From assembly GCA_048938005.1 (NCBI GenBank), contig JBHLMQ010000062.1, positions 1-16,430 on the forward strand: a stretch of DNA of 16,430 bases, read 5' to 3'. The notes beneath the pieces are model-generated. The model made no database searches and was not told the origin of the DNA. It was given only the letters and a program-made list of their open reading frames with translations. A program made the translations under genes and the position numbers. This DNA comes from Promethearchaeota archaeon. GTDB taxonomy: Archaea; Asgardarchaeota; Lokiarchaeia; Sigyniarchaeales; SOKP01. Below, one piece after another: positions 164 to 11,242 of this stretch; position 1 is the first letter of the stretch; the number at the start of each line of letters is the position of its first letter.

Positions 164-1156
164 TTAATCTTCTTCTTGGTCCCATCCAAGATCCTTTAAA
201 ACAGAACCAAGAGCTTCAGATTCTTCCTCTAACACAAATTCTGTATCATATTCAGAAGCAGAAATTTCTGATTCAAAATCTGGGGGAGCTAACTCTTCAA
301 ACGATGGTAATTCATCAAGAGGGGGTAATTCTTCAGTTAATACCGCTTCTTCTGAAATGGGTGCTCGTTTTTCTGAAATTGGTTCTTCATCAATTTCCAT
401 TGGAGTATAATCATCAAGGGGAATCGGTGGAACTTCATCCTCATATATTTTAAATCCAGTCTGAGTTGCTTGAATTATAGTTTCTGGGATATGAGATGCC
501 TCGGATTCAGCAACTGCTTTTATTTCCTTATCAAGCCCTAATCCTACTGATTTTGGAATTGAAACAACACCACTTTCTGTTGATGCTTCAAGTTCTTCGA
601 ATTCAATATCTTCTTTTTCCCAATTATCTAAAAATCCTAATAAATCATCTAAAGCTGCTTTATCTTGTTCAAGTGAAGGTTTTACTATTAGTTTAGTTTC
701 TTCTTCTATCTTTTGCTGTTCAATTTTCTCTATTTCGGATTCTTCAAGAGATAGCATCATTTCTGTTTCTTGATCTCCAGAAATTAACTTATTTAACTCT
801 TTTGCTAACTCTCTTAAATAACCTAGATAGTAGCCAATATGATAAATAGCTCGTAGACCTCCAAACACAATGTATTCGTCATTAATAGCCATCAAGATAC
901 TATAACCTGATGTGTTATGTAAAATAATTTCTGTTAAAGCACCATGAACAGTTGCTTGGTTCAATCTTAAGCCTAAATCTATTAAGGCAGTACTTGATGC
1001 AGAAGTAGCATCAGCATCTAATTCTGAAGAAGTTGCGCTGGCTACTTTCATTCCTACTCGAGATAAAACTGAAAGATTTTCTAAATCAGTTTTATTTTCT
1101 TCTTCTCTTAATACATGCATCATTTTATTACGGATATCTTCTGCAATTGTAGACAT
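164..1156 (-). CDS. Roadblock/LC7 (LAMTOR2/MglB-like) domain protein with a long acidic disordered C-terminal tail
   Basis: aa ~5-126 follow the roadblock pattern: helix, 'NLSVLSRVGMKVAS', 'DADATSASSTALIDLGLRL', 'LTEIILHNTSGYSILMAINDEYIVFG', then 'IGYYLGYLRELAKEL'. aa 127-330 are E/D/P-rich. SD-like AGGAG lies upstream of the ATG. Confidence 0.82.
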   Translation of the reverse strand: MSTIAEDIRNKMMHVLREEENKTDLENLSVLSRVGMKVASATSSELDADATSASSTALIDLGLRLNQATVHGALTEIILHNTSGYSILMAINDEYIVFGGLRAIYHIGYYLGYLRELAKELNKLISGDQETEMMLSLEESEIEKIEQQKIEEETKLIVKPSLEQDKAALDDLLGFLDNWEKEDIEFEELEASTESGVVSIPKSVGLGLDKEIKAVAESEASHIPETIIQATQTGFKIYEDEVPPIPLDDYTPMEIDEEPISEKRAPISEEAVLTEELPPLDELPSFEELAPPDFESEISASEYDTEFVLEEESEALGSVLKDLGWDQEED

Positions 1157-3138: not shown

Positions 3139-3260
3139 AACTCTTATTTTAAATAAAATTCTTTTTCATAACTTTATTTTGCAAAATATATAAACTAAGA
3201 ATTATATAATTTTTGTTTACAATTTAATATATTAAATAAATAGGTATACTGTTTGAATAT

Positions 3261-3647
3261 ATGCTAAAAAAAATCTTTAAAAAAAGAATTAATGAAATAC
3301 ACGAGAAAGTTAGGGATAAAAGAATTCTACTCGCTGATGATATGTCTAATTTCTTCGGATTAGAATCATTAGGAGTATGGAAAGTTCGTGGGAACGGTGT
3401 TTTATTACTAACAGAAGAACAACTAATCTTTGGAATGTGGAAACCTAAGAAAGAGTTAATAATCCCGATTAAATCTATTATTAAAATTACAAATCCAAAA
3501 TCACATATGCATAGATCCGTATTTAGACCACTTTTAAAAGTAATATTTAATAATGAAATTGGAGAAATTGACTCTGCCGCGTGGTATGTACAACATTTAG
3601 ATAAGTGGAATGAGGTTCTTAACAAGTTACTTTTAAAAAATAGATAA
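3261..3647 (+). CDS. Small stand-alone PH-like (GRAM/bPH-type) domain protein
   Basis: 'RGNGVLLLTEEQLIF...ELIIPIKSIIKI...LLKVIF...AAWYV...KWNEVLNKL' matches the G-x-L-x-L-T-x-x-x-L-x-F / I-P-x-x-x-I strand pattern and the terminal Trp-containing helix of PH-like folds. ATG start, and codon usage resembles its neighbours. Confidence 0.65.
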   Translation: MLKKIFKKRINEIHEKVRDKRILLADDMSNFFGLESLGVWKVRGNGVLLLTEEQLIFGMWKPKKELIIPIKSIIKITNPKSHMHRSVFRPLLKVIFNNEIGEIDSAAWYVQHLDKWNEVLNKLLLKNR

Positions 3648-7446: not shown

Positions 7447-8097
7447 ATGGGTTTAAAAAAGAGACTCTTTCCACGTAAAAGTAAAGAAAAAGATGACTTA
7501 GTAGCAATGGCCAAAGGGCATATCCATAAATTAAATTTAATGAATAAAAATTATAGTAAACGTGCAGAAATCAGTAGAAAAAATGCAAAAATCGCTTTAA
7601 AACGAGGAGAAAAAGATCGAGCGAAAAATTATCTCATTCAATATAAAGCTTATCAAGCGAAAGTAGACCGTGCCACTAATATTAGGGGAAAAATCGAACG
7701 GCAAATTCAGGCAATAGAAGAGGGAATGCTCATATCTCAGACAGGTGATGTGATGGGGGGAATAAGGGATGAACTCGAATTTATTGCAACAAAAGCATCA
7801 CCAGCGAAAGTTGCTGAAATTGCAGAAGATTCTGAAGCATATGTATCGGAAATTGAGGAAGCTGCAGAAATTTTAGCTGGCGATCCTGAAATTGATTTGG
7901 CAATTGATGTTACAGAGGAATTAAATCAACTAGAGACAGAAATGTTGTTGGATCAAGGCGGGGCAATGCCTCAAATTCCTTCAGACGAACTTCAATACAT
8001 TCCAGAATATGATCTTGAAGAAGAAGAAGCTGAAGTTAAATCAAAAGAAAAATTAAAGGACGAAATTGATAAATTAAGAAAGGAATTGGAAGGCTAA
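7447..8097 (+). CDS. ESCRT-III / Snf7 family protein, most similar to the Vps20/Vps32/Vps60 (CHMP4-6) class
   Basis: Basic N-terminal helical hairpin ('AKIALKRGEKDRAKNYLIQYKAYQAKVDR...IERQIQAIE') and acidic C-terminal half ('VSEIEEAAEILA', 'DVTEELNQLETE'). It also has an N-terminal amphipathic 'MGLKKRLF', a MIM2-like 'MPQIPSDEL' and a terminal helix 'LKDEIDKLRKEL'. 216 aa is typical. Confidence 0.9.
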   Translation: MGLKKRLFPRKSKEKDDLVAMAKGHIHKLNLMNKNYSKRAEISRKNAKIALKRGEKDRAKNYLIQYKAYQAKVDRATNIRGKIERQIQAIEEGMLISQTGDVMGGIRDELEFIATKASPAKVAEIAEDSEAYVSEIEEAAEILAGDPEIDLAIDVTEELNQLETEMLLDQGGAMPQIPSDELQYIPEYDLEEEEAEVKSKEKLKDEIDKLRKELEG

Positions 8098-9262: not shown

Positions 9263-11242
9263 TTATGTATAAAATCGTTTTTTATCAAAATTTCTGCTAT
9301 TTTTCCTTATGTCTTCAACCTCCTGCAAACTTTCTTGTAACTCTTGGATTTTTTTATCAATTAAATAAATTTCTTTTTGTAGATTCTTAAATGTTTTAAA
9401 ATAATCAACTTCAGAAATAATTCCCTGATCGAATTTAGCATCAAGCTTTTTTAATGTTTCTTTTAGACTGTATCTCTCTTTGTCCAATTCGAGCATTTTT
9501 TTATGTTTTTCTTTATCTATTTTAAAAAGCTTTCGTTTATACCTATAAGAATTATGTGGTGAAATATATTCCGAATCGAATAAATCAGAAAGGTGATTTC
9601 TGTTATAATCTTCGAATGTCGCTTCGTTATTTAAAGAATAATCGTTTTCATTGTATCTATTATTATTTATATTATTTATTGGGTTAGAGATGTAGGGATT
9701 TAAGTTATTAAGTAGTTCATTATCCAAATTAATTCTTTGAGGATTGTAATTTTGAAAGCGATTTGGATTATAGAAATTTTGTAAAAAGAAGGAGTTTTTA
9801 TCATAAGGGGGTATTTGAGAATTGCCGATAAATTGAGTTGGTTGAATATGAGGTTGGAGATAAGGTGAATTATTTATTTTATGAAAAAAATTTGAGTTTC
9901 CTGGAAAATTGAGCCAAGGTTGAGCCCTATTTTGGGGATGAATAAATTGAGATGATTCTCGAGATAAAAAATTGGGTATTTGATTGGGTTGAACATTAAA
10001 AGGATTAGCCAAATCTTTATTATAACTGTGTATGTTTTCAAAACTTTTATTATATTGGCACTTTATACTAAAAAATGAGTTAATGCTTTCTTCAATAAAG
10101 TTTGTTAATTCATTCAAATCAACATCAATTTGTTGAAGTTTTTTTGCGGTTTTTAAATCATATATCGTAGTTTCGTCAAAGGATCTTGCCAGAAGAATGT
10201 ATTCAATTACTCTTGAAACAGATTTAGGAGGTAATGTAAATTCATATTTTCCATAGGTAAATTCAATATAGAGTTTTTTGAAAACCTTGCCTTTTTCTCT
10301 TATTTTTGTTAAATCTTGGACAGGTGCTTTAAAAATTAATTCTTTTTTCTTTTTAACTACACCATGTTCATGAACAAAAGATAGATCAAAATTAGTAATA
10401 AATAAAATCCCTTTATCTTTCTTGAATTTTTCTTGGGTATTCAATCCATTGGTTAATTTAGCAAAAATAGCATATACAGGTTTTTCACCTTCCGCAAGCC
10501 TTAGTAATTTCTTGTAAGCACTAAAATAATAACTAATCTTAGCAATAAATTGTAGGTTTTTTTCAAAGGTTTCGAAACTATCATTGAATGTTTGGATATT
10601 ATTTGTTATAAACTCATCAATAGCATTATAACTCCGCAATAAATTTTCAAAGATTCCTTCTATGATTGTTATATTTGAATTTGGTTGAGTGTAGGTATCA
10701 AAAAAATACTCTTTATTTTGATTTAATTGATGAAAATGAAGATTAACTTTTTCAAATAAAGTATTCTGGATATAGAGAAATAATTTAAAAAGAGCTAATA
10801 AATCCGATTCCATATTGGGAAAATGATAACATTTATTGGGAGGTTCTCTTACTTCCTTGATTTTTGATTGGAATACATATAATTTATCAAGAATGTCTTT
10901 TAAAGGCTCTGTAAATAATCGTGAATTTTTTATTAAATCTAAAAATCTCTTTTCAAGTTCTTCTTTTTTCTCGTATATGTTAATAATTTGATGGGAGCTA
11001 CACTTTGGGCATGCTGATAAACGTTGATTAATTTTTATTATATTCTCATTTCCACAATCATTACATACTTTCTTTTTTTCAGAGTCCAAAGTTTTAATAT
11101 TTTTTGATTTACAATCTTGACAAATAAAAAAATCAACTTTTTTCTCATGCAAACAGTCAGAACAACAACTAGCGCCACACTCTTCACAATAATAAGCTAA
11201 CTTAACATATCTGTGACAAAAACGACAAACCTGATCTGACAT
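9263..11242 (-). CDS. Multidomain hypothetical protein: multi-CxxC (FYVE-like) zinc finger + helical region + PH/GRAM/GLUE-like domain + N/P/Q-rich low-complexity region + steadiness-box(Vps23 core)-like C-terminal hairpin
   Basis: Six CxxC pairs in aa 6-81. 'LAEGEKPV...KGILFITNFDLSF...APVQDLTKI...KLYIEF...YEF...VSRVIEYI' at aa ~247-352. N/P/Q-rich aa ~410-550. 'LKETLKKLDAKFDQGIISEVDYFKTFKNLQKEIY' at aa 593-626. The CDS itself is highly confident; the domain calls are by eye. Confidence 0.7.
   Translation of the reverse strand: MSDQVCRFCHRYVKLAYYCEECGASCCSDCLHEKKVDFFICQDCKSKNIKTLDSEKKKVCNDCGNENIIKINQRLSACPKCSSHQIINIYEKKEELEKRFLDLIKNSRLFTEPLKDILDKLYVFQSKIKEVREPPNKCYHFPNMESDLLALFKLFLYIQNTLFEKVNLHFHQLNQNKEYFFDTYTQPNSNITIIEGIFENLLRSYNAIDEFITNNIQTFNDSFETFEKNLQFIAKISYYFSAYKKLLRLAEGEKPVYAIFAKLTNGLNTQEKFKKDKGILFITNFDLSFVHEHGVVKKKKELIFKAPVQDLTKIREKGKVFKKLYIEFTYGKYEFTLPPKSVSRVIEYILLARSFDETTIYDLKTAKKLQQIDVDLNELTNFIEESINSFFSIKCQYNKSFENIHSYNKDLANPFNVQPNQIPNFLSRESSQFIHPQNRAQPWLNFPGNSNFFHKINNSPYLQPHIQPTQFIGNSQIPPYDKNSFFLQNFYNPNRFQNYNPQRINLDNELLNNLNPYISNPINNINNNRYNENDYSLNNEATFEDYNRNHLSDLFDSEYISPHNSYRYKRKLFKIDKEKHKKMLELDKERYSLKETLKKLDAKFDQGIISEVDYFKTFKNLQKEIYLIDKKIQELQESLQEVEDIRKNSRNFDKKRFYT

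What the first reader, a model, noticed from the sequence alone, without database searches (positions are those of the whole stretch)
9323..9505. C-terminal hairpin aligns without gaps to the TSG101/Vps23 steadiness box
Seen: aa 592-634 'SLKETLKKLDAKFDQGIISEVDYFKTFKNLQKEIYLIDKKIQE'. The human TSG101 steadiness box as I recall it from memory (needs verification) is 'AIEDTIFYLGEALRRGVIDLDVFLKHVRLLSRKQFQLRALMQK'. They align without gaps, keeping T, L, G-x-I, K, L and the hydrophobic register (F/Y, V/F, F/Y). Known: this hairpin builds the ESCRT-I headpiece with Vps28 and Vps37. Caveat: SHOCT domains share the 'G-x-I-S/T-x-x-E/D-Y/F' turn, but the match here extends through a longer second helix.
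Basis: partly seen in the sequence, partly recalled or inferred. Interest (0 to 1): 0.72.

Follow-up and report, generated by a model that had tools for sequence, protein, structure and literature searches.

The report
Known Asgard ESCRT-I-like steadiness-box protein
The flagged hairpin is a real Vps23-type steadiness box at the end of a 659-residue Lokiarchaeial protein, but this protein family (zinc ribbons, PH domain, steadiness box) has already been described, so the finding is correct and not new.

Summary
The quoted peptide is real: aa 592-634 of a 659-aa ORF at window 9263..11242 on the minus strand.

Evidence that it is a steadiness box (SB):
- Pfam's best family is Vps23_core, at 19.2-23.0 bits. 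That is below the gathering score of 26.8. SHOCT scores only 16.5-16.9 bits, on the turn alone.
- A profile of the C-terminus finds UEV/E2-fold proteins with Vps23_core tails among 1.84 billion representatives.
- That profile aligns to those tails at 97.5% probability, E 7.9e-12.
- A broader profile's top hit among 177,635 PDB sequences is the yeast Vps23 SB (E 0.0015, gapless over 55 aa). Human TSG101 scores E 0.054.
- 0 of 2000 shuffles reach the real score.

The whole protein matches the published Asgard family Znr_CC_PH_SB (asCOG cog.011556; PMC10936438). The gene order is the same as in Lokiarchaeum GC14_75. It has six invariant CxxC pairs and a PH region aligned to bPH_3/GRAM-positive relatives. 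The ESCRT-IIIB (CHMP4-7) orthologue lies downstream in 70 of 80 related loci.

Verdict: observation confirmed, interpretation supported, already known, low interest.

The parts
9263..11242 (-). Whole gene: 659-aa Znr_CC_PH_SB-type protein (P0001), stop codon included
   Evidence: ORF list and translation. 258 full-length relatives at E<=1e-3, of which the 120 listed are 52-99% identical and mostly named Promethearchaeota/Lokiarchaeia. Same position between L35Ae and MetE as the published Lokiarchaeum GC14_75 member of cog.011556.
10988..11242 (-). N-terminal zinc-ribbon region (aa 1-85) with six CxxC pairs at C6, C19, C27, C41, C60 and C78
   Evidence: All twelve cysteines of the six pairs are invariant in 21 sequences. 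The pairs are located. Pfam gives only weak DZR (E 0.0016) and zf-B_box (E 0.027) on the fragment. NCBI names several relatives 'B-box zinc finger protein'.
10508..10987 (-). Conserved, presumably helical region (aa 86-245), the 'CC' of the family name
   Evidence: Strongly conserved in A1 and aligned along its whole length to distant relatives. That it is helical or coiled-coil is taken from the paper's family name, not tested here.
10178..10495 (-). PH/GRAM-like domain (about aa 250-355)
   Evidence: hhalign of A1 against A4: probability 100%, E 3e-106, 659 columns. 9 of the 11 A4 proteins pass Pfam bPH_3 (gathering score 23) at the aligned position, about 250-352. The window protein alone gives only PH_SLA1 at E 0.013 to 4.9. 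Atlas leads (GRAM/Vps36_ESCRT-II, bPH_3) all score below 0.9.
9548..10048 (-). N/Q/P-rich, poorly conserved linker (aa 399-565) with two conserved short motifs: aa 484-499 (window 9746..9793) and aa 549-555 (window 9578..9598)
   Evidence: Composition: 37 N and 16 P in aa 400-570. Invariant residues are F485, Q488, N489, N494, Q497, N498, Y499, H550 and F555 in A1. No P[ST]xP or YPxL motif is present.
9308..9526 (-). Steadiness-box hairpin (aa 573-645): helix 1, a G-x-I-S-E turn at aa 607-611, and a longer helix 2.
   Evidence: Pfam Vps23_core on aa 573-627. hhalign to UEV/E2-fold SB tails: 97.5%, E 7.9e-12. PDB top hit is the yeast Vps23 SB. Shuffle control: 0 of 2000. That it folds as a hairpin is inferred from these alignments; no model could be made.
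9266..9307 (-). C-terminal tail (aa 646-659) with the motif SRNFDxKRFYT
   Evidence: Conserved in the close clade and absent in the 39%-identical relatives L076 and L078. Function unknown.
7447..8097 (+). Neighbouring ESCRT-IIIB gene (Vps20/32/60-like, CHMP4-7 orthologue), convergent with the SB gene
   Evidence: Pfam Snf7 E 7e-11. PDB 9fn1_U E 4.4e-100 over the full length. 9FN1 occurs in PMC11791191, the paper on the cryo-EM rods of Loki GC14_75 CHMP4-7. Present downstream in 70 of 80 related loci.

Best explanation
The hairpin is the C-terminal steadiness box of a Lokiarchaeial member of the published Asgard family Znr_CC_PH_SB (asCOG cog.011556). The architecture, from N to C terminus, is:
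- three zinc ribbons;
- a conserved, presumably helical region;
- a PH/GRAM-like domain;
- a long N/Q/P-rich flexible linker;
- a Vps23-type helical hairpin.

Likely mechanism (inferred, not shown): the PH domain, and possibly the zinc ribbons, place the protein on a membrane or on cargo. The SB hairpin packs against the SB hairpins of other Asgard ESCRT-I-type proteins (Vps28, UEV-Vps23, free SB proteins) to form a headpiece-like bundle. This would couple the protein to ESCRT-II and ESCRT-III. It may fill the place of the Vps37-type third hairpin, which PMC9192718 reports as having no clear Asgard homologue.

Shown here: the homology of the hairpin, the domain order, orthology with the published family, and conserved neighbourhood with the ESCRT-IIIB gene. 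Not shown: any binding, membrane association or ubiquitin recognition.
For: (1) Hairpin homology.
- Vps23_core is the top Pfam family for the protein and its C-terminal pieces. It matches 16 of 19 family C-termini at E<=1 and 13 of 21 full-length members at E<=0.01.
- An hmmsearch with the C-terminal profile A2 over 1.84 billion representatives gives 111 hits at E<=1e-3. I scanned 89 of them with Pfam. Of these, 20 carry Vps23_core at E<=1e-3 (5 at or above the gathering score), 8 carry UQ_con/UEV in front of the matched tail (library-wide E 6.5e-6 to 8e-4), and 15 carry bPH_3/GRAM.
- hhalign of A2 against those eight UEV/E2-fold proteins: 97.5%, E 7.9e-12, 58 columns, onto their C-terminal SB.
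- Shuffle control: 48.9 bits, with 0 of 2000 shuffles reaching it.
- The broadened profile A5 has the yeast Vps23 SB chains as PDB hits 1, 2 and 4 (E 0.0015-0.0038, gapless). TSG101 6vme_B scores 0.054 and Vps28 scores 0.4.
- One of 25 family fragments carries a precomputed PF09454. UniRef names the Lokiarchaeum orthologue P0091 'SB domain-containing'.

(2) Family membership.
- Six invariant CxxC pairs.
- Full-length hhalign to relatives with bPH_3 at or above the gathering score.
- The gene order GlgA-RidA-ArgE-PepD-L35Ae-[this gene]-MetE-ESCRT-III-DHQS-Mer-GH57 is identical to the published table for Lokiarchaeum GC14_75, where the gene is labelled Znr_CC_PH_SB, cog.011556.
- PMC10936438 calls the family a likely ESCRT-I component. 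The preprint 10.1101/2023.07.25.550441 lists cog.011556 as 'Steadiness/Vps23 box'.

(3) ESCRT context.
- The ESCRT-IIIB orthologue lies downstream in 70 of 80 loci. In 30 of them it is directly adjacent (median gap 55 bp).
- 9 of the 10 loci without it have at most 2.3 kb of downstream sequence.
Against: - The window protein never reaches Pfam's Vps23_core gathering score (19.2-23.0 against 26.8).
- Coiled-coil families score nearly as well. APG6_N matches 18 of 19 members, with a best E of 7.3e-6.
- Single-sequence and narrow-profile PDB searches are not significant for ESCRT-I chains.
- The UEV/E2-fold comparison set was picked from hits of the same profile, so one search is not fully independent.
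- The same profile also picks up SHOCT-bearing tape-measure proteins at E 3.8e-5 and 1.3e-4.
- No long stalk helix directly precedes the hairpin, unlike what PMC10936438 describes for eukaryotic Vps23. Only about 25 residues lie between the low-complexity linker and the hairpin.
- The whole 20-kb neighbourhood is syntenic within Lokiarchaeia, so adjacency to ESCRT-IIIB may reflect general synteny. The two genes are convergent and not co-transcribed.
- No structure or complex could be modelled.
Confidence: 0.8

Rival explanations
1. The hairpin is a generic SHOCT-like bihelical oligomerisation or membrane-proximal module, not an ESCRT-I-specific steadiness box. Its likeness to Vps23 would reflect only the shared G-x-I-[ST]-x-x-[ED]-[YF] turn.
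For: - Pfam SHOCT matches the turn at 16.5-16.9 bits, E 0.005-0.007.
- The C-terminal profile hits two tape-measure proteins with SHOCT above the gathering score (P0201, P0216) at E 3.8e-5 and 1.3e-4.
- In P0201 the profile match (91-140) overlies Pfam's SHOCT match (94-115).
- P0214 scores sub-threshold for SHOCT, Vps23_core, CdvA and GvpG together.
Against: - SHOCT scores about 6 bits below Vps23_core and covers 19 residues, against 51-55 for Vps23_core.
- SHOCT matches only 2 of 19 family members at E<=1, against 16 of 19 for Vps23_core.
- The individual matches to SHOCT hairpins are 8-14 bits, against 40-49 bits for SB-type relatives.
- Of the 89 hits scanned, 3 have SHOCT, against 20 with Vps23_core and 8 with UEV/UQ_con.
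- The rest of the protein and its gene context are those of a published ESCRT-linked family.
Confidence: 0.1
2. The protein works like CdvA rather than Vps23. It would be a membrane-bound adaptor that recruits the neighbouring ESCRT-IIIB (CHMP4-7) directly, without an ESCRT-I/II relay, through its hairpin or its conserved C-terminal tail.
For: - Conserved neighbourhood with the ESCRT-IIIB gene: 70 of 80 loci, 30 of them directly adjacent.
- CdvA-like matches in 4 of 19 family C-termini at E<=1 and in 3 of the 89 profile hits scanned.
- Published HHpred similarity between SB and CdvA hairpins (PMC10936438; preprint).
- A clade-specific conserved C-terminal tail of unknown role.
Against: - No CdvA match for the window protein at E<=10.
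- The genes are convergent, and the whole region is syntenic.
- Lokiarchaeia also encode Vps28, UEV-Vps23, Vps22 and Vps25, which interact in two-hybrid assays (PMC9192718). A relay therefore exists.
- No binding test was possible.
Confidence: 0.08
3. The resemblance is a chance or composition effect of a lysine/glutamate-rich coiled coil.
For: - Several coiled-coil Pfam families score within a few bits: Prefoldin_2, APG6_N, KIF21A, THOC7.
- The PDB hit lists are full of coiled coils.
Against: - 0 of 2000 shuffles reach 48.9 bits (maximum 10.2), and the reversed sequence scores -3.0.
- The E-values to UEV-bearing proteins are significant across the whole library.
- hhalign E 7.9e-12.
- The hairpin residues T596, L600, G607, S610, Y614 and F615 are invariant across 21 full-length family sequences. 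Across the wider set of 19 C-termini, T596, L600 and F615 remain invariant and G607 stays at 90% or more.
Confidence: 0.02

Closest known systems
Znr_CC_PH_SB (also written Znr_PH_CC_SB), Asgard asCOG cog.011556, e.g. Lokiarchaeum sp. GC14_75 gene As_004-p_01543 (PMC10936438)
   Same: Same length class: 650 aa against 659 aa. P0091, of 650 aa and 57% identity, is the likely same record. Same domain order. Same flanking genes on both sides over about 14 kb.
   Different: Nothing of substance: this is another Lokiarchaeial orthologue. An entry 99% identical over 85% of the query is already in NCBI, and the exact sequence is in the ESM Atlas.
Asgard UEV-Vps23 proteins (UEV/E2 fold + stalk + SB; preprint 10.1101/2023.07.25.550441, PMC9192718)
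   Same: The C-terminal hairpin is homologous: hhalign 97.5%, E 7.9e-12, 34% identity over 58 columns.
   Different: There is no UEV domain. In its place are zinc ribbons, a conserved region and a PH domain, joined by a roughly 165-residue low-complexity linker. Ubiquitin binding, shown for UEV-Vps23 in those papers, is untested here.
Eukaryotic Vps23/TSG101 steadiness box (Pfam PF09454; PDB 2f66, 2p22, 6vme)
   Same: Gapless alignment of about 55 residues across both helices and the turn. Yeast Vps23 is the best PDB match of the broadened profile.
   Different: Below Pfam's cut-off. E is only 0.0015 for yeast and 0.054 for human. No adjoining long stalk. Headpiece partners are unknown.
Yeast Vps36 (ESCRT-II): split PH (GLUE) domain with inserted zinc fingers
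   Same: A PH-type domain combined with zinc fingers in an early-ESCRT protein. This analogy is drawn in PMC10936438. The Atlas gives a lead to GRAM/Vps36_ESCRT-II clusters at 0.81.
   Different: No winged-helix domains. The zinc ribbons are N-terminal, not inserted. The similarity is analogy plus weak leads only.
SHOCT (Pfam PF09851)
   Same: Shares the turn motif L-x-x-L-x-x-x-[FL]-x-x-G-x-I-[ST]-x-x-[ED]-[YF].
   Different: The SHOCT model is 28 positions and covers only the turn here. It scores lower than Vps23_core, and the context is different.

Membership tests
Vps23_core / steadiness box (PF09454) | Score at or above Pfam's gathering cut-off (26.8 bits) | tested here: not met
   19.2 bits for the whole protein; 22.3, 22.9 and 23.0 bits for the C-terminal pieces. 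It is still the top family each time. One of 25 family fragments has a precomputed PF09454.
Vps23_core / steadiness box (PF09454) | Profile-level homology to the SB of proteins that also carry a UEV/E2-fold domain | tested here: met
   hmmsearch E 6.5e-6 to 8e-4 for eight such proteins in 1.84 billion representatives. hhalign 97.5%, E 7.9e-12. 3 of the 8 pass the Vps23_core gathering score. The set was chosen from hits of the same profile.
Vps23_core / steadiness box (PF09454) | Alignment over both helices and the turn to a solved Vps23/TSG101 SB | tested here: met
   2f66_A E 0.0015, gapless (profile positions 29-83 on chain residues 7-61). It is the top hit of 177,635. 6vme_B (TSG101) scores E 0.054. 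Narrower profiles and the single sequence are not significant.
Vps23_core / steadiness box (PF09454) | Folds as a helical hairpin | not testable with these tools
The one accepted job failed. The Atlas holds no model.
Vps23_core / steadiness box (PF09454) | Packs with Vps28 and Vps37-type hairpins into the ESCRT-I headpiece | not testable with these tools
   Complex prediction had a full queue and was then declared unavailable.
Vps23_core / steadiness box (PF09454) | Long coiled-coil stalk directly before the hairpin (as PMC10936438 describes for eukaryotic Vps23) | tested here: inconclusive
   Only about 25 residues (aa 566-590) separate the N/Q/P-rich linker from the hairpin. No structure prediction was available.
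Znr_CC_PH_SB (asCOG cog.011556) | Three N-terminal zinc ribbons | tested here: met
   Six CxxC pairs in aa 6-81, all cysteines invariant in 21 sequences. Metal binding is not shown.
Znr_CC_PH_SB (asCOG cog.011556) | PH domain in the middle of the protein | tested here: met
   Met by transfer. hhalign of A1 against A4 gives 100%, E 3e-106 over 659 columns, and 9 of the 11 A4 proteins pass bPH_3 at the aligned site. The window protein alone gives only weak PH_SLA1.
Znr_CC_PH_SB (asCOG cog.011556) | C-terminal SB | tested here: met
   See the rows above.
Znr_CC_PH_SB (asCOG cog.011556) | Orthology with a listed member | tested here: met
   Same flanking genes as As_004-p_01543 in supplementary file 2 of PMC10936438. 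L35Ae lies upstream in 76 of 80 related loci, and MetE is found in 45 of 80.
SHOCT (PF09851) | Score at or above the gathering cut-off (27 bits), with the domain covering the module | tested here: not met
   16.5-16.9 bits on 19 residues (model positions 2-20 of 28). Not listed for the whole protein at E<=10. 2 of 19 relatives at E<=1.
CdvA (PF18822), Mod_r/Vps37, Vps28 N-terminus | Any Pfam match to the hairpin | tested here: not met
   None of the three is among the 22 and 15 families listed at E<=10 for the two C-terminal pieces. CdvA matches 4 of 19 relatives at E<=1, best 0.0055. HMMER's filters drop most matches above E of about 0.1.

The most novel reading that the evidence does not exclude
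In Lokiarchaeia this single chain may act as a self-contained early-ESCRT adaptor. It would sit on the membrane through its PH domain and zinc ribbons. Through its SB hairpin or its conserved C-terminal tail it would nucleate the adjacent filament-forming ESCRT-IIIB (CHMP4-7) directly. That is a CdvA-like shortcut which bypasses, or predates, the ESCRT-I/II relay. A linked idea is that the SB hairpin, CdvA and the bacterial/phage SHOCT hairpin are one ancient bihelical module. I found no paper linking SB and SHOCT. In the SHOCT+ESCRT search, 2 papers hold both terms, of which 1 was listed and read in passages. In the four-term search, 33 papers hold at least 2 terms, and 15 were listed; none of those holds SHOCT together with Vps23 or steadiness box.
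Probability: 0.12. Interest if true: 0.6.

Novelty: already known. Interest (0 to 1): 0.2.

Why it matters
Asgard ESCRT-I is one of the eukaryote-like systems used to reconstruct how membrane trafficking arose. PMC9192718 reports that Asgard archaea lack a clear Vps37 homologue. An extra SB-bearing protein with membrane-binding and zinc-finger modules is therefore a candidate third headpiece subunit or cargo/membrane adaptor.

That idea, the family and its domain order are already in print (PMC10936438). This window adds another orthologue and an independent confirmation of the SB call. It also adds a count showing that the gene keeps company with the ESCRT-IIIB (CHMP4-7) gene across Lokiarchaeial genomes. 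No function has been shown for any member in the papers I read, so experiments would still be worthwhile. The finding itself is not a discovery.

Tried and rejected
The job accepted was interrupted. No model exists, so no Foldseek search was run.
- Homo-trimer test. I tried to submit three copies of A2 residues 11-90 to complex prediction. The queue was full, and the tool was declared unavailable. Nothing was folded.
The taxa and names of the distant relatives (A3, A4, A5) stay unchecked.
- ESM Atlas. The middle region gave leads only, all below 0.9. The C-terminus gave no usable hit.
- NCBIfam gave only noise: SidA_fam at E 0.051.
- The PDB search with the UEV/E2-fold alignment A3 was swamped by E2 enzymes and said nothing about the SB.
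- The search for shorter or split forms found 25 hits. All are 55-94% identical to the query C-terminus, lie on contigs of about 10 kb or less (most under 3 kb), and 3 are labelled 'partial'. I read them as fragments of the same family. No closely related free-standing form appeared.
- The bacterial promoter/terminator scan is uninformative for an archaeon: 28 found against 28.9 expected.
- No tRNA and no Rfam family in the window.
- Not searched: metagenome contigs and viral contigs, which are closed.
- Not seen: PDF figure supplements and any HHpred table for cog.011556 in PMC10936438. The term occurs only in supplementary file 2 of the three files held as text. bioRxiv supplements are closed.
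Full report
**What is there.** The window is AT-rich (GC 0.25-0.35) and archaeal. It encodes ribosomal protein L35Ae, type II 3-dehydroquinate synthase, a GH57 glycosidase, glycogen synthase and an Snf7-family protein. The finding lies in a 659-aa ORF at 9263..11242 on the minus strand. The quoted peptide is exact. It is aa 592-634, which is window 9341..9469.

**Is it a steadiness box?** On the single sequence, Pfam's best family is Vps23_core. It scores 19.2 bits (E 1.3e-3) for the whole protein, with aa 573-627 on model positions 3-57 of 64. All of these lie below Pfam's gathering score of 26.8.

SHOCT reaches 16.5-16.9 bits and covers only 19 residues at the turn. Mod_r, Vps28 and CdvA are not among the families listed at E<=10. 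Ordinary coiled-coil families such as Prefoldin_2 and APG6_N score only a few bits lower, so a single-sequence call would be unsafe.

**Relatives of the whole protein.** There are 258 relatives at E<=1e-3. The 120 listed are 52-99% identical, and those that carry a name are mostly from Promethearchaeota/Lokiarchaeia assemblies. UniRef names one of them, P0091, 'SB domain-containing'.

**Search with the C-terminal profile.** A profile of 19 C-termini (A2) was searched against 1.84 billion representatives. It gave 111 hits at E<=1e-3. I scanned 89 of them with Pfam. I left out P0122-P0140 and P0142, which are high-scoring and mostly short proteins that I took to be fragments of the same family, and the 42- and 47-residue hits P0173 and P0217. 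Among the 89:
- 20 carry Vps23_core at E<=1e-3, and 5 of these are at or above the gathering score;
- 8 carry a UQ_con/UEV domain in front of the matched tail;
- 15 carry bPH_3/GRAM;
- 3 carry SHOCT;
- 3 carry CdvA, none at the gathering score.

**Profile-profile and control tests.**
- hhalign of A2 against the eight UEV/E2-fold proteins (A3) gives 97.5% probability, E 7.9e-12, 58 columns and 34% identity, placed on their C-terminal SB.
- An HMM of those SB columns scores the window's aa 570-659 at 48.9 bits. None of 2000 shuffles exceeds 10.2 bits.
- A broadened profile (A5: 13 family C-termini plus 12 short SB-like proteins) has the yeast Vps23 SB as the best of 177,635 PDB sequences: 2f66_A at E 0.0015, gapless over 55 residues. 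2caz_A and 2p22_A follow at 0.0025 and 0.0038. Human TSG101 (6vme_B) scores 0.054 and yeast Vps28 scores 0.4.

**Results against the call.**
- The full-length family profile gives only E 0.24 for 2p22_A.
- The narrow C-terminal profile gives E 0.33-1.2 for six ESCRT-I chains among 38 mostly coiled-coil hits.
- The single sequence finds no ESCRT-I chain among 7 hits.
- The A3 set was selected from hits of the same profile, so one search is not fully independent.

Overall, the hairpin is homologous to the SB of Asgard-type UEV-Vps23 proteins and, through them, to eukaryotic Vps23.

**What the whole protein is.**
- The N-terminus holds six CxxC pairs, with every cysteine invariant in 21 sequences.
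- The family aligns end to end with 11 distant relatives (A4) at 100% probability, E 3e-106 and 21% identity. Nine of those 11 pass Pfam bPH_3 at the position that aligns to window aa 250-355.
- An N/Q/P-rich linker of about 165 residues follows. It contains two conserved short motifs.
- Then come the hairpin and a clade-specific tail.

This is the architecture published as Znr_PH_CC_SB / Znr_CC_PH_SB, asCOG cog.011556, in 'Diversity, origin, and evolution of the ESCRT systems' (PMC10936438). I read passages of that paper and part 109 of supplementary file 2. The paper calls the family absent in eukaryotes, found in several Asgard lineages, likely ancestral, and 'a likely ESCRT-I component'. 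It expects the PH domain to be membrane-associated by analogy with Vps36.

In its table for Lokiarchaeum GC14_75, the gene (650 aa) sits in the order GlgA, RidA, ArgE, PepD, L35Ae, Znr_CC_PH_SB, MetE, Vps20-family ESCRT-III, DHQS, Mer, GH57, an uncharacterised gene, CAAX protease. That is the window's order. A preprint (10.1101/2023.07.25.550441; passages) already lists cog.011556 as 'Steadiness/Vps23 box'.

**Context.** A scan of genome contigs found 114 relatives, of which 80 loci were kept.
- L35Ae is upstream in 76 of 80 loci.
- The Snf7-family gene is downstream in 70 of 80. MetE lies between in 40 of these. In the other 30 the two genes are directly adjacent and convergent, with a median gap of 55 bp.
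- Of the 10 loci without the Snf7-family gene, 9 have at most 2.3 kb of downstream sequence.

That neighbour matches PDB 9fn1_U at E 4.4e-100. The 9FN1 code occurs in PMC11791191, the paper on the cryo-EM rods of Loki GC14_75 CHMP4-7 (ESCRT-IIIB) (passages). The whole 20-kb region is syntenic in these genomes, so the linkage is suggestive and not decisive.

**How it most likely works (inference).** The PH domain and zinc ribbons would place the protein on a membrane or cargo. The flexible linker would give it reach. The SB hairpin would join a headpiece-like bundle with other SB proteins. Two-hybrid data in PMC9192718 (passages) show UEV-Vps23 binding Vps28, and a free SB protein binding Vps28 and Vps22, in Lokiarchaeota. 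The same paper notes that there is no clear Asgard Vps37. I could not test binding. Complex prediction was never accepted, and no model could be made.

**Rivals.**
- A generic SHOCT-like hairpin (0.10). The turn motif is shared, and the profile weakly matches tandem SHOCT hairpins in two tape-measure proteins. However, scores, coverage and context favour SB.
- A CdvA-like direct recruiter of ESCRT-IIIB (0.08).
- Chance or composition (0.02), excluded.

**Verdict.** But the family, its SB and its proposed ESCRT-I role are already published. An entry 99% identical over 85% of the query is in NCBI, and the exact sequence is in the ESM Atlas. Novelty: already known. Interest: 0.2.

Noticed in passing
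window 7447..8097 (+): The Snf7-family gene, one gene away and convergent, is the orthologue of Loki GC14_75 CHMP4-7 (ESCRT-IIIB): PDB 9fn1_U, E 4.4e-100. It follows the SB gene in 70 of 80 related loci and is directly adjacent in 30 of them, with a median gap of 55 bp.
   Followed up: yes
window 3261..3647 (+), overlapping the antisense ORF 3224..3625 (-): Of the two overlapping ORFs, the plus-strand 128-aa one is better conserved: 26 loci at a median 189.5 bits, against 25 loci at 146 bits. It matches the strand of the uncharacterised cog.005314 gene in the published Lokiarchaeum table. It may be a stand-alone PH/GRAM-like protein. The evidence is weak: Pfam Vps36_ESCRT-II E 0.14, GRAM E 0.19, and hhalign to the PH start of the SB family at 64.8%, E 6.2e-5. 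The PDB profile search found nothing relevant.
   Followed up: partly
window 9746..9793 and 9578..9598 (-); tail 9266..9307 (-): Inside the otherwise variable N/Q/P-rich linker there are two conserved short motifs: FFxQNFYNPNRxQNY (aa 484-499) and NHLSDLF (aa 549-555). The extreme C-terminus carries a conserved SRNFDxKRFYT tail, which is missing in the 39%-identical relatives L076 and L078. These may be docking motifs. No P[ST]xP or YPxL motif is present.
   Followed up: no
P0189 (395 aa): A protein with DUF4062 and TIR_2 domains ends in an SB-like hairpin that scores 42 bits against the family's C-terminal profile. Here a steadiness-box-type hairpin is attached to a TIR module.
   Followed up: no
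P0201 (875 aa) and P0216 (1655 aa): Two tape-measure proteins with SHOCT above Pfam's cut-off carry tandem hairpins that the SB profile matches weakly (8-14 bits each). In P0201 the profile match overlies Pfam's SHOCT match. P0214 is sub-threshold for SHOCT, Vps23_core, CdvA and GvpG together. SB, CdvA and SHOCT may be related bihelical modules. I found no paper linking SB and SHOCT among those listed.
   Followed up: partly
window 164..1156 (-): A 330-aa ORF with no family match (Pfam best E 0.057; NCBIfam noise only), yet conserved at the same place in 50 of 80 related loci.
   Followed up: no
L011 (CP070831.1 segment): This is the only related locus with 10 kb of downstream sequence that lacks the ESCRT-IIIB gene after MetE.
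   Followed up: no
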